From IMG/VR virus record IMGVR_UViG_2585427621_000010: a DNA stretch of 37,493 nucleotides; one strand, 5' to 3'. Within the stretch, counting starts at the first letter, position 1, and each line of letters opens with the position of its first letter. This DNA comes from a virus (taxonomy: Duplodnaviria > Heunggongvirae > Uroviricota > Caudoviricetes). The position numbers were made by a program. Shown piece by piece: positions 33,001 to 36,000 of the stretch.

Positions 33001-36000
33001 GCTCAAGGGCTACGGCCATTGCGTGTTTCAACCTCTCATTTTCCACCTCAAGCACCACACGATTAGCCTCCAGCTCTTCTATGCGTTTTTTTGCTGCTCC
33101 CAGCTCAACACGCAGCTCCTGATAGTTAATCTCGCTCATTCTCCTTCCTCCCGCACTGCTGTTTTATATGCCCGAAGCACATGCGATGTTTTTCCTGACA
33201 CAGTGCTTCTCAGAAAGAAAATTCCACTGGTGTTTATTACCAGATACGGGTCAGCAAGACGCAGCATATCCAGTATGTGATTATGTTTTCTTGTTTCCAG
33301 CACCGTACTTGAAATAAGCATATGTGACACGGGGCCGAAATCATGATATCTGATTTTCATATCATCACCCTGCTGTAAAAATTACCCGTTATCTCCTGTC
33401 GTTATTTTCTGTATGACATCACGATGCTTATTAATTTCCCGCAGCGCGGCGCATAAGCGCTCCCACTTCTGAACCTGACCTTTTGCCCGGCGCAGCTCGC
33501 GGTTAGCCACATGCAGCGATGGTAAAATCAGACCATCCGGATGCTTTCTGATGAACGACGACTGTGACTGCACTGTGACCGCCACACTTTCAGTTTTAAT
33601 TTCTTCCTGTGTTTCCGCTTCCCGGACTGGTAACGCAACACCTGCCGGCTGAGGAAAGGCTTTACCATCGGTTTCCGTTACCGATGCAGCTTTCGGCTCT
33701 GCCGGTAAATTATCGCCCGGTATGCAGTAACGATATTTACCGTCCTGATTTACGCGAATCAGACGACCTTTGCTGACAGCCATCGCCAGTGATGAATTCG
33801 CCCGGCGGGAGGTAATCCCGAACATTAACGCCAGTTCGTCAGCCGACTGAGGACCATGCTGTTCAATCGCGTTAATCAGCATCTCTGCAGTGGTTTTTGG
33901 GGCCGCTTCAGTTGCCTCACTCGTCAGCCACCACATCGACCCCTTGTTATCAGCTTCGCCACGACGCTTCAGCTTCCAGAGTTCGGTAACAGCATCGTCA
34001 CGGCTGATTTCAAGACGGGCTGCAATCTCGTGCGACGAGGCTTTTTTCAGTGCTTTCAGTGCGTCAAAAACGGTTTCCATTAAATTTTCCTCCCGGTAAA
34101 AATTACTTCTCAACTCAGACAAAACCGGCCGCCTTCCGGCGCTCATATTCCTGTTTCAGCAATTCAATTGGCGTTGGCCCTGGCGGGCGTTTGGGTGCTG
34201 CCAGTTGTCGCCGGACTGGCGGAACACTGAGGCCATTACCAACATGCTTTGCCCATTTCGTCAGCTGCCTTTCCACAAGCCGTTTTAACTCCCCTTCGGT
34301 CATCTGGCGCTCAATCCCCTTTGAACGCATCTCGAGGCAAATGTGGTACAGCACCGGCTGTGGCCACGGGTATTTATCACTCCCGTCGTACCGCCAGGAT
34401 TCATTCCTCCAGCGACGGTACTCCTCCATCACGGCATCCACCGTCAGGCCAAATGGATTTGCCCCGCTCTCCGAAATCAACGCCACAAACTCAGCCAGAT
34501 CCGGAGGCCACGTTTCACCCGCCCGGCAGCGGTCCATGCACTGACGGCAGACCTGCCGGATTTGCTGTTCAGTCATCGCGCCAATCTGAGCAATCCAGAG
34601 CTTCGACGGCGCAGCCCCGTTCTTCTGGGTCCAGCGGTTCGAATACACCTCCCCCATAAGTTCCCACAGCTTCCAGGCCGTTTCCGTTGCTGATAAATCC
34701 GTTTTCACGTTCCCACTGTTCACGTGCTGCCCGAATTTCCTGAACTGCCCGTGATGCGGTGCCACCTGGTGCTGCATGGCTTACCCCCTTGCTGACTGGT
34801 TTTACCTGTGCCCTGACGTGCTGCACGTGACGGGCAAATTTCTGCTCCCACTGAACCTGCGTGAAAACCTTCCCCTCCGCCATCCAGTAATCCCGGAATG
34901 CGGCAAGCTCAGCAGGTGTAAACTCAGGCTCAGGCAGAGCCATACCCCACACTGCTGCCCGCTGTCGAAAATCCGGCGACGGTTGCCAGACTCCAGTCAT
35001 CGGAAATTTCCCGATCGGTTCGCTCAGGCCGTCCAGGTATTCAGGTTCGGCTGTCTGCAACGACGCGTCATTCAACTCACCGGTCGTAGCACTCTCGCGC
35101 ATGCGCGCGTTATGTGTGGGGTTTAATTCTTTATCTGTATCTGTATCTGTCGTGATTTGTCGTGACATATGCGTGACGCGTCGTGACTCATCGTGACAAT
35201 CAGTGTTCTGCTTCCGCAGTCTTTCCCGCTCCCGCTGCGCTCTCTTGCGCTCTGCCGGGGATTTTGCGGTTTGCGAAACATTACCGTTATCCTCCTTCAT
35301 CACCTGGCGTTTTTCCCATCCGGAAATAAGATCACCATCCAGAACTCGCCCCTGCATTGCATGCAAAATTGAATCAATCACGTCTTCCGTCACATCAAGC
35401 GCACTTGCTAAATCTTCCGTCGTGACATCAATGTGACCACGTAGTGACACGCCGTGACATGTCGTGACATTTCGTGACGCACTCACCAGAAGGTGGATAT
35501 ACACCGCCATCACTGTTGCGATTGGCTGTCCTGAGACCCTGGCAATGGTTCGCCATTTGGGATCATTTGGCATGTCATGCCACAATCTGAGCCAGGCATT
35601 AGCCATACTCACCTCATCTGATACCGAACTTTACCCTCGAACATCCGGAAGAAATCCGGCATGAATATTGTTGGTCAATGCACGACAACAGCATTACCAG
35701 GCTGACCACCACTGTTAGTCAGGGTGCCCCAGGCGATCGCCGCTGCGACAAAATCATCCACATCTTTCACCAGCCGATCCCTCCGTTCGACGATCTCACG
35801 GTAATATTCAGAGCTGTGACTGCGCATACGGGCCACCAGCAGAGGCGGCATTGCCTTTTCGATCGCCGGTAACAGAGCCTGAATTTTTTCAACAGCATCA
35901 GGGGTGTCTTTATCCAGCCAACGGAAAATTTTCTGGGTATTACGAGCCAGGGCTTCCGGATGGCTGTCGTCGTACAGTTCCGGGAACGTCATCCCCAGCT

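What the first reader, a model, noticed from the sequence alone, without database searches (positions are those of the whole stretch)
34569..34777. About 200 bp in which the O-like and P-like reading frames both stay open
The P-like frame is open from 34777 and its residues upstream of the MTEQQ methionine still align with lambda P, yet the O-like ORF runs to 34569. Either P really starts at the internal ATG (34576) and the upstream similarity is a remnant, the two genes genuinely overlap, or a frameshift is present.
Basis: seen in the sequence. Interest (0 to 1): 0.35.

Follow-up and report, generated by a model that had tools for sequence, protein, structure and literature searches.

The report
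Conserved 209-base overlap of two replication genes
In this E. coli O157:H7 prophage the gene for the lambda-P-like helicase loader most likely starts 209 bases inside the preceding replication-initiator gene, a two-frame overlap kept across many enterobacterial prophages and some Vibrio phages, so it is a real arrangement that current annotation shortens, not a sequencing error.

Summary
On the minus strand the initiator-like ORF (34569-35612) and the P-like ORF (34115-34777) are both open over 34569-34777, while the third frame has three stops there. For this sequence alone that is not beyond chance (P about 0.5 and 0.25). The comparative evidence decides the matter. The stretch is 100% identical in every listed record among 341 E. 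coli records at 99% identity or more, so it is not a sequencing error. Twenty-two diverged Enterobacterales lineages and two Vibrio phages keep a 149-242 nt overlap. All 22 lineages have a P-frame ATG at the 34777-equivalent position, and 21 of 22 have a strong Shine-Dalgarno site there. The annotated start (34576) has none and is not conserved. Substitution patterns switch from initiator-frame to P-frame constraint at about P residue 28, upstream of both internal ATGs. An AlphaFold model has a confident helix over residues 24-45, and the whole 220-residue form aligns with full-length lambda P. Best reading: P starts at 34777 and the overlap is genuine. The RefSeq (PGAP) 153-residue call is probably 67 residues too short. 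This is a new variant of a known kind, of moderate interest. Translation has not been shown experimentally.

The parts
34569..35612 (-). Initiator-like ('O-like') gene, 347 aa from GTG 35612. PGAP starts it at ATG 35606 (345 aa, WP_001262409.1, 'DnaT-like ssDNA-binding domain-containing protein').
   Evidence: ORF list, PGAP annotation of the identical sequence, PHROG replication-initiation families.
34806..35006 (-). DnaT DNA-binding domain of the initiator-like protein (aa 203-269).
   Evidence: Pfam PF17948, 63.6 bits against a cut-off of 25. NCBIfam DnaT model matches partially and below its cut-off.
34784..34790 (-). Shine-Dalgarno sequence AAGGGGG, 6 nt upstream of the P start codon and lying inside the initiator coding sequence.
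   Evidence: Sequence. Duplex energy with the anti-SD is -11.8 kcal/mol here. The median is -10.2 in 22 lineages against a background median of -2.5. GGAGG-like motifs sit at the same place in the relatives.
34775..34777 (-). Proposed true start codon (ATG, M1) of the P-like gene. In the initiator frame it is formed by cAT|Gca (His-Ala).
   Evidence: 22 of 22 lineages have an xAT + Gxx codon pair in the initiator frame here (His, Asn, Tyr or Asp, always the T-ending codon). Vibrio phages D67 and pA2SJ1 have CAT GAA and AAT GAA.
34115..34777 (-). P-like helicase-loader gene, long form (220 aa).
   Evidence: Pfam PF06992, 59.9 bits against a cut-off of 26. PHROG 109 matches residues 18-219 to profile positions 22-235 of 236. 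AlphaFold model. Foldseek best hit is lambda P in the DnaB complex. Forms of 216-223 aa are called in many database records.
34569..34777 (-). Dual-coding stretch (209 nt). The P frame is the initiator frame shifted by +1.
   Evidence: The third frame has stops, 3 here and 2-6 in the relatives.
34697..34777 (-). Sub-region A (P residues 1-27; initiator tail motif ...TASRAVQEIRAAREQWERENG). The initiator frame is the constrained one, and the P residues here are a poorly conserved leader predicted to be disordered.
   Evidence: The most variable codon phase is initiator position 3. Initiator synonymous divergence is 0.50 here against 0.55 outside the overlap. P amino-acid identity is 0.25. pLDDT is below 50 for residues 1-25.
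34569..34696 (-). Sub-region B (P residues 28-70; Gly/Asp/Glu-rich end of the initiator tail). The P frame is the constrained one, and the initiator tail largely follows it.
   Evidence: The most variable phase is P position 3. Initiator synonymous divergence collapses to 0.20 and 0.11, while P synonymous divergence is 0.63 and 0.51 against 0.58 outside the overlap. The initiator frame is nevertheless kept free of stops beyond expectation.
34655..34657 (-). Internal ATG (M41, MGEVYSNRW...). This is the start PGAP uses for 180-181-aa homologues in other genera. It could be a secondary start.
   Evidence: Nearly invariant Met, but CTG in L022 and L025 and Leu in Vibrio phage D67. Median SD energy is -5.8 kcal/mol. 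It lies in the middle of the predicted helix 24-45.
34574..34576 (-). Internal ATG (M68, MTEQQ...). This is the start in the RefSeq/PGAP annotation (153 aa, WP_000139466.1).
   Evidence: Not conserved: Leu or Cys in 5 of 22 lineages. Median SD energy is -2.4 kcal/mol, the same as background.
34569..34571 (-). Stop codon (TGA) of the initiator-like gene, formed from P codons ACT GAA. The identical ATGAxTGA arrangement occurs in 12 of the 22 lineages.

Best explanation
This is a genuine, evolutionarily maintained same-strand overlap of two replication genes. The upstream gene encodes a phage replication initiator made of a variable DNA-binding part, a DnaT-type domain and a conserved tail of about 70 residues. 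It is translated through to its TGA at 34569.

The lambda-P-like helicase-loader gene is translated independently, in the +1 frame. Its own ribosome-binding site (AAGGGGG, then 6 nt, then the ATG at 34777) lies inside the initiator gene. The product is 220 residues, not the annotated 153.

The two proteins share the 209 nt by dividing the constraint:
- In the first 81 nt or so, the initiator's conserved tail motif dictates the sequence. The loader reads a poorly conserved N-terminal leader that is predicted to be disordered.
- In the remaining 128 nt or so, the loader's first conserved helices dictate the sequence. The initiator reads a Gly/Asp/Glu-rich tail whose residues mostly follow from the loader's codons.

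What is shown computationally: the two open frames, the conserved ATG and Shine-Dalgarno site, the switch of codon-phase constraint, and the protection of both frames from stop codons.

What is inferred: that translation really starts at 34777; that the protein loads DnaB as lambda P does; and that the shared stretch keeps the initiator's tail and its cognate loader together as one recombination unit.
For: 1. Not an error. The 1701-nt query is 100% identical in all 30 listed E. coli O157:H7 records, and 341 records are at 99% identity or more.

2. Conserved arrangement. 30 loci in 22 lineages below 85% nt identity keep an overlap of 149-242 nt. They come from Escherichia, Citrobacter, Enterobacter, Klebsiella, Salmonella, Pluralibacter, Phytobacter, Kluyvera, Pectobacterium, Erwinia, Buttiauxella, Rahnella, Samsonia, Rouxiella and Limnobaculum. 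Vibrio phages D67 and pA2SJ1 have overlaps of 212 and 230 nt.

3. Start signal. 22 of 22 lineages have the P-frame ATG, built from a T-ending His/Asn/Tyr/Asp codon followed by a G-starting codon, although the T-ending codons make up only 41-59% of usage in these genes. Median SD energy is -10.2 kcal/mol at this ATG, -5.8 at M41 and -2.4 at M68, with a background median of -2.5. 21 of 22 lineages fall beyond the background 10th percentile. The probability of ATG + SD + open frame, conditional on the initiator protein, multiplies to 1e-22 over the 22 lineages. Summing the same per-lineage values by hand for 11 deep lineages only gives about 1e-12.

4. Coding signature. The most variable codon phase switches from initiator position 3 to P position 3 at P residues 26-30. 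From residue 28 the P-frame synonymous divergence (0.63, then 0.51) equals that of the non-overlapping part (0.58). The initiator-frame synonymous divergence falls from 0.55 to 0.20 and then 0.11.

5. Internal starts are not universal. M41 is CTG in two lineages and Leu in Vibrio phage D67. M68 is Leu or Cys in five lineages and Leu in both Vibrio phages.

6. Structure. The AlphaFold model has a confident helix at residues 24-45 (pLDDT 88-89 for residues 31-60) that straddles M41. Foldseek aligns 218 columns with full-length lambda P, chain 9oa1_Z. In lambda, deleting P residues 9-86 abolishes function (PMC3640518).

7. Frame control. The third frame has 2-6 stops in the overlap in every lineage, whereas both coding frames have none. 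The initiator frame stays open about twice as far as synonymous shuffles of P predict, with summed log10 P of -16.9.
Against: - There is no experimental evidence of translation from 34777: no ribosome profiling, N-terminal peptide or mutant.
- In one sequence the double openness is not improbable (P = 0.49 and 0.25).
- The 22 lineages share ancestry, so the multiplied probabilities overstate independence.
- P residues 1-27 are poorly conserved (identity 0.25) and predicted disordered. What is shown to be selected is the start signal and the openness, not the sequence of the leader.
- M41 is Met in 20 of 22 lineages and half of them have a moderate SD-like motif, so a second, shorter isoform cannot be excluded.
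- In the two Vibrio phages the Shine-Dalgarno site at the first ATG is weak.
- Profile-profile alignment to the lambda clade does not reach upstream of residue 88.
Confidence: 0.8

Rival explanations
1. The loader starts at the internal ATG 34657 (M41, 180 aa). The overlap is then real but only 89 nt, and the P frame upstream of it is open incidentally.
For: M41 is nearly invariant. PGAP-181-aa 'replication protein P' in Salmonella, Citrobacter, Klebsiella, Brenneria and Pectobacterium. Half of the lineages have an SD-like TGGGA/GGAGG a few bases upstream. Given the initiator protein, the probability that the frame is open from M1 to M41 is 0.1-0.9 per locus.
Against: M41 is CTG in L022 and L025 and Leu in Vibrio phage D67. 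The P-frame coding signature begins about 13 codons upstream of it. W38 is invariant and the A-W-x-L-W-E motif is conserved upstream of it. A conserved ATG and strong SD lie 32-42 codons upstream in 22 of 22 lineages. M41 would cut the predicted helix 24-45 in half.
Confidence: 0.1
2. The loader starts at ATG 34576 (M68, 153 aa), as in RefSeq, coupled to termination of the initiator through the ATGACTGA junction. The upstream P-frame similarity is a decaying remnant.
For: This is the PGAP annotation. The ATGAxTGA junction is identical in 12 of 22 lineages, a geometry compatible with termination-reinitiation.
Against: M68 is Leu or Cys in 5 of 22 lineages and Leu in both Vibrio phages. SD energy is at background. 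Residues 28-67 evolve under P-frame purifying selection, with invariant W38, W49, K52, N53, G54, P57 and W61. Starting here would remove three confidently predicted helices, which correspond to a region whose deletion inactivates lambda P.
Confidence: 0.03
3. A frameshift mutation or sequencing error has split or displaced what was one frame, so the gene is a pseudogene or the sequence is misassembled.
For: Two long overlapping frames are what a recent indel would produce. One PHROG family (phrog_15931, 482 profile positions) is matched by both proteins, which suggests that a fused ORF is annotated somewhere. Single fused database entries exist, for example P0098.
Against: The sequence is identical in hundreds of independently sequenced complete genomes. 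The same two-frame layout occurs in 22 diverged lineages and in cultured Vibrio phages. Both frames are under selection.
Confidence: 0.01
4. Programmed ribosomal frameshifting carries ribosomes from the initiator frame into the P frame and produces an initiator-loader fusion protein.
For: An SD-like element inside a coding sequence can stimulate +1 frameshifting, as in prfB (own knowledge). The P frame is the +1 frame.
Against: A P-frame stop lies 3-51 nt upstream of the ATG in the lineages scored. No slippery heptamer is present in the window, and the sporadic ones in relatives lead into the third frame, which has 2-6 stops. There is no in-frame stop or other pause site in the initiator frame at the SD. 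The SD-to-ATG spacing is that of an initiation site. No conserved RNA structure was found.
Confidence: 0.02

Closest known systems
Bacteriophage lambda O-P replication module
   Same: The gene order is the same: an origin-binding initiator followed by a helicase loader of the Phage_lambda_P family (PF06992). The fold matches lambda P in the DnaB-lambda P complex, and the 220-aa form is about as long as lambda P (233 aa). The two genes also overlap in lambda. An O read-through product that extends into the start of P was reported in early lambda work (Yates et al. 1977, cited in PMC3640518).
   Different: In lambda the overlap is only 4 nt (O 38686-39585, P 39582-40283), and lambda-clade loci L034-L037 have 22-29 nt of double openness. 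Here the overlap is 209 nt. The window's initiator has no Phage_rep_O match and carries a DnaT domain. Sequence similarity of the loader to the lambda clade is detectable only for residues 88-220.
DopC/DopE-type pairs and phage HTH + DnaT_C initiator / P-like loader modules (Brezellec et al. 2017, PMC5509034)
   Same: An initiator carrying a DnaT C-terminal-type domain is paired with a lambda-P-like protein. The relative PPompW has HTH_36 + DnaT.
   Different: That paper does not contain the word 'overlap'. The window's N-terminal domain is of a different, Pfam-unassigned type.
Long same-strand out-of-frame overlaps ('overprinting') in phages, for example phiX174 A/B/K and D/E, and lambda Rz/Rz1 (own knowledge)
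   Same: Two proteins are read from one strand in two frames. The well-constrained part of one lies over a weakly constrained, probably disordered part of the other.
   Different: Here the overlap is terminal and reciprocal, tail of one gene over head of the next, rather than one gene nested inside another. It joins two proteins of one replication module that are expected to be partners.
Rac-type prophage replication regions (Escherichia phage Rac-SA53 ydaU/'ydaV')
   Same: About 90% nt identity over the DnaT domain, the tail and the loader. The same two open frames are present, with a 212-nt overlap.
   Different: The initiator N-terminus is DUF1376 (YdaU type). The record annotates the loader from the MTEQQ-equivalent ATG.

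Membership tests
Phage_lambda_P (PF06992) helicase loaders | Significant match to the family profile above the curated threshold | tested here: met
   59.9 bits against a cut-off of 26, residues 55-187. PHROG 109 'P-like helicase loader' E = 1.3e-62, residues 18-219.
Phage_lambda_P (PF06992) helicase loaders | Fold of lambda P as seen bound to DnaB | tested here: met
   The AlphaFold model (mean pLDDT 76.6) has as its best Foldseek hits chains 9oa1_Z, Y and V (E 5e-6 to 1e-5, TM about 0.5, 218 aligned columns). The TM-score is moderate, consistent with an extended multi-helix protein.
Phage_lambda_P (PF06992) helicase loaders | Binds and loads the host DnaB helicase; interacts with the cognate initiator | not testable with these tools
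   Needs biochemistry or genetics.
Lambda O (Phage_rep_O, PF04492) initiators | Match to the O N-terminal origin-binding domain | tested here: not met
   No PF04492 match for the window's protein at E <= 0.01. The relative L019, which has the same tail, does match. The window's protein is 'O-like' by position only.
DnaT-domain proteins (PF17948) | Match to the DnaT DNA-binding domain | tested here: met
   63.6 bits against a cut-off of 25, aa 203-269. It is not an equivalog of primosomal DnaT: the NCBIfam score is 93 bits against a cut-off of 201.
Functional overlapping gene pair (dual coding) | Both frames open in diverged relatives while the remaining same-strand frame is closed | tested here: met
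   30 loci in 22 lineages. The third frame has 2-6 stops.
Functional overlapping gene pair (dual coding) | Selection attributable to each frame (start signal, stop avoidance, codon-phase pattern) | tested here: met
Functional overlapping gene pair (dual coding) | Both products demonstrated experimentally, with the predicted N-terminus | not testable with these tools
   No expression data were available.
Programmed ribosomal frameshift site | Conserved slippery sequence with a stimulator that leads into the second frame | tested here: not met
   No heptamer in the window. The sporadic ones in relatives lead into the closed third frame. No conserved structure.

The most novel reading that the evidence does not exclude
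The 209-nt dual-coded stretch may encode, in two frames, the two surfaces through which the initiator and its helicase loader recognise each other: the initiator's C-terminal tail and the loader's N-terminal helices. Partner specificity would then be physically inseparable by recombination. That would explain why one tail-plus-loader unit is found joined to at least five different initiator architectures in mosaic prophages.
Probability: 0.25. Interest if true: 0.6.

Novelty: new variant of a known kind. Interest (0 to 1): 0.4.

Why it matters
It bears on three things.

1. Annotation. If the 34777 start is right, the loader in this very common O157:H7 prophage module is 220 aa. RefSeq's 153-aa call in E. 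coli, its 180-aa calls in other genera, and the 108-146-aa calls in the two Vibrio phages would then all lack part of the N-terminal region. In lambda P the corresponding region is essential. Anyone expressing or modelling these loaders from the annotated start would then be working with a truncated protein.

2. Evolution of overlapping genes. It is a clean natural example of a reciprocal tail-over-head overlap in which each protein's constrained segment lies over the other's weakly constrained segment. The example is maintained from Escherichia to Vibrio phages.

3. Phage mosaicism. It points to the unit of exchange in these replication modules. The recombination boundary lies upstream of the initiator's tail, not at the gene boundary.

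Tried and rejected
- Statistics on the single locus. Synonymous-codon shuffles show the double openness is not unusual in one sequence. The argument therefore rests on the comparative data.
- Conserved RNA structure around the P start that might hide or expose the Shine-Dalgarno site. RNAalifold on 22 lineages found no pairs.
- Sequence homology of the N-terminal third to lambda P. Profile-profile comparison with a small lambda-clade alignment aligned only residues 88-220. The profile search against PDB sequences aligned lambda P only from about window residue 74. Support upstream of MTEQQ comes from Pfam, PHROG 109 and the fold instead.
- Lambda's 35-codon O read-through extension. It shows no evident resemblance to the tail seen here.
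- Literature. Three full-text searches found no description of this overlap. This is a limited search of open-access papers, not proof of absence.
- -1 frameshifting. Rejected because the -1 frame is the closed third frame.
- GTG at 34705 (V25) as a start. It is not conserved in relatives.
- Not run: a second structure prediction for the initiator tail, a multimer model of tail plus loader, and a search for natural initiator-loader fusions behind phrog_15931.
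Full report
**What is there.** The region lies on the minus strand. An initiator-like ORF runs from 35612 (GTG; PGAP uses the ATG at 35606) to a TGA at 34571-34569. A second ORF in the +1 frame is open from an ATG at 34777 to 34115, giving 220 aa. The third same-strand frame has three stops in this stretch. The upstream protein has a DnaT DNA-binding domain (aa 203-269) and no Phage_rep_O match. The downstream protein matches Phage_lambda_P. The neighbours are a LexA-family repressor, a Cro/CI regulator, a YdaT-family protein and a DUF1627 protein, which is the early region of a lambdoid prophage.

**Is it an error?** No. The 1701-nt query around the junction is 100% identical in all 30 listed E. 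coli O157:H7 and related records. In total 341 records are at 99% identity or more. RefSeq annotates the loader from MTEQQ (153 aa, 8-nt overlap ATGACTGA).

**Is the double openness more than chance?** Not in this sequence alone. With the initiator protein fixed and its codons shuffled synonymously, the P frame stays open over the whole overlap in 49% of trials. With the P protein fixed, the initiator frame stays open as far as observed in 25%. The comparative data are what decide the question.

**Relatives.** A scan of one genome per species returned 34 loci. With the window and two phage records, 30 loci keep the same layout, and they fall into 22 lineages below 85% nt identity. In each, an upstream initiator-type ORF ends 149-242 nt downstream of a P-frame ATG. 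The genera range from Escherichia, Salmonella, Klebsiella and Enterobacter to Pectobacterium, Erwinia, Rahnella, Samsonia and Limnobaculum. Two Vibrio phages have the same arrangement:
- D67: initiator 753-1613, P ORF 1402-2061, overlap 212 nt.
- vB_VpM-pA2SJ1: initiator 717-1610, P ORF 1381-2040, overlap 230 nt.

By contrast, lambda itself overlaps by 4 nt, and lambda-clade loci show only 22-29 nt of double openness. The long overlap is therefore a property of this loader subfamily.

**Where does the loader start?** Four lines of evidence point to 34777.

1. *Start signal.* All 22 lineages have a P-frame ATG at the homologous place. It is formed by an initiator-frame xAT codon (His, Asn, Tyr or Asp) followed by a G-starting codon. 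The T-ending codon is used every time, although it makes up only 41-59% of such codons in these genes. The ATG is preceded by GGAGG, GGGGG or GAGG at initiation spacing. Anti-SD duplex energies have a median of -10.2 kcal/mol at this ATG, -5.8 at M41 and -2.4 at M68, against a background median of -2.5 and a 10th percentile of -6.1. Conditional on each initiator protein, the chance of ATG + SD + open frame is 0.004-0.29 per lineage. The product over 22 lineages is 1e-22. My hand sum for 11 deep lineages gives about 1e-12.

2. *Coding signature.* For P residues 2-27 the most variable codon phase is the initiator's third position. From residues 26-30 onward it is P's third position. Initiator-frame synonymous divergence is 0.55 outside the overlap, 0.50 opposite P residues 2-27, 0.20 opposite residues 28-40 and 0.11 opposite residues 41-68. 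P-frame synonymous divergence is 0.37, 0.63 and 0.51 over the same three segments, and 0.58 outside the overlap. P-frame purifying selection thus begins about 13 codons upstream of M41. An example of the initiator following the loader: its Arg/Trp alternation in '...EER/EEW...' is simply the synonymous AAC/AAT choice of P's invariant Asn53.

3. *The internal methionines are not universal.* M41 is CTG in two lineages and Leu in phage D67. M68 is Leu or Cys in five lineages and Leu in both Vibrio phages.

4. *Structure.* In the AlphaFold model residues 1-25 are disordered. A confident helix spans 24-45 and further helices cover 47-53 and 59-66. The best structural match is lambda P bound to DnaB, with 218 aligned columns, so the 220-aa form aligns along nearly the whole of lambda P. 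PHROG 109 'P-like helicase loader' aligns residues 18-219 to profile positions 22-235 of 236. In lambda, deletion of P residues 9-86 abolishes replication function and P lethality (PMC3640518).

**Is the initiator tail also maintained?** Yes, at least as an open frame. Given the P protein, synonymous shuffles put the first initiator-frame stop at a median of 47-95 nt after the P28-equivalent position. The observed frame runs 128-164 nt in 20 of 22 lineages, with summed log10 P of -16.9. The stop is at the identical ATGAxTGA position in 12 lineages. The first part of the tail (...T/S-A-S-R-A-V-Q-Q-I-R-x-A-R-E-x-W...) is conserved in its own right.

**Module structure.** The same tail of about 70 residues, with the loader attached, follows different initiator architectures:
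- an unassigned N-domain + DnaT (the window);
- DUF1376 + DnaT (Rac-SA53);
- HTH_36 + DnaT (PPompW);
- Phage_rep_O (L019);
- HTH_36/DnaD_N (L020);
- DUF1376 without DnaT (L022, L023).

Near-identity between the window and its phage relatives begins only in the second half of the initiator gene. The unit that is exchanged therefore appears to be tail plus loader.

**Mechanism proposed.** Ribosomes initiate independently at the internal SD and ATG (34790-34775) and produce a 220-aa loader. Initiator translation continues through the same RNA to 34569. The conflict between frames is reduced because each protein's constrained segment lies over a weakly constrained segment of the other. I infer that the overlap ties the initiator's tail to its cognate loader. 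By analogy with lambda, where the C-terminal part of O and the N-terminal part of P are the interacting regions (own knowledge, not tested here), that tail would be the docking site for the loader. Whether translation of the initiator modulates loader initiation is unknown. No conserved RNA structure was found at the start.

**Rivals.**
- A start at M41 (89-nt overlap) remains possible as a secondary isoform, but it does not explain points 1 to 3.
- A start at M68 is contradicted by points 1 to 4.
- A frameshift error is excluded.
- Programmed frameshifting is unsupported.

**Novelty.** Database records already contain 216-223-aa calls for this family alongside the shorter RefSeq calls, so the long ORF has been seen by gene callers. 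I found no paper that describes or analyses the overlap. I rate it a new variant of a known kind: a lambda-type initiator/loader module joined by a long dual-coding overlap. Interest is moderate. The main practical consequence would be a systematic correction of the start codon.

Noticed in passing
window 36413 and 36421: Two ambiguous bases (n) sit just upstream of, or at the start of, the LexA-family (cI-like) repressor gene. The mechanically listed TTG ORF from 36407 therefore translates with X residues. PGAP starts the gene at the equivalent of 36422.
   Followed up: partly
window 34569-35612 (N-terminal ~170 aa, about 35100-35612): The N-terminal part of the initiator-like protein has no Pfam match, but it matches PHROG replication-initiation, DnaD-like and replisome-organizer families. 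Relatives with about 88-90% nt identity downstream carry quite different N-domains (DUF1376, HTH_36), so a mosaic breakpoint lies inside the gene near 35148.
   Followed up: partly
PHROG phrog_15931: One PHROG family with 482 profile positions is matched by the initiator at positions 1-347 and by the loader at positions 279-482. This suggests that some phage record annotates a fused initiator-loader ORF, or that the cluster merges the two frames. Single fused entries also occur in the protein database: P0098 (DUF1376 + P, 333 aa) and P0030 (P + DUF1627, 291 aa).
   Followed up: no
L039 (Vibrio phage D67) 1402-2061; L040 (Vibrio phage vB_VpM-pA2SJ1) 1381-2040: The P-like genes of these Vibrio phages are annotated as truncated 'hypothetical proteins' (1735-2061 and 1600-2040). 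A 219-aa ORF homologous to the long form overlaps the initiator gene by 212 and 230 nt. 124 Vibrio phage records match this protein.
   Followed up: partly
window 33382-34146 (-): The DUF1627 ORF is open from an ATG at 34146 and so overlaps the end of the loader gene (34115) by 32 nt. PGAP starts it at METVFDAL (34080). Which start is real was not examined.
   Followed up: no
window 34050-34693 (+): Three long antisense ORFs (116-164 aa) lie opposite the loader gene and recur in Rac-SA53 and PPompW. They are probably a by-product of codon composition. Not tested.
   Followed up: no
H2, PP818812.1: A record named Actinobacillus phage vB_Apl-pPE4 shares about 90% nt identity with this E. coli prophage replication module, which is unexpected for a phage of a Pasteurellaceae host.
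   Followed up: no
L038 (lambda) 984-1091: In lambda the O frame stays open for 35 codons past its UGA into the start of P. This fits the old report of a read-through product O' (Yates et al. 1977, cited in PMC3640518). The extension does not resemble the tail studied here.
   Followed up: partly
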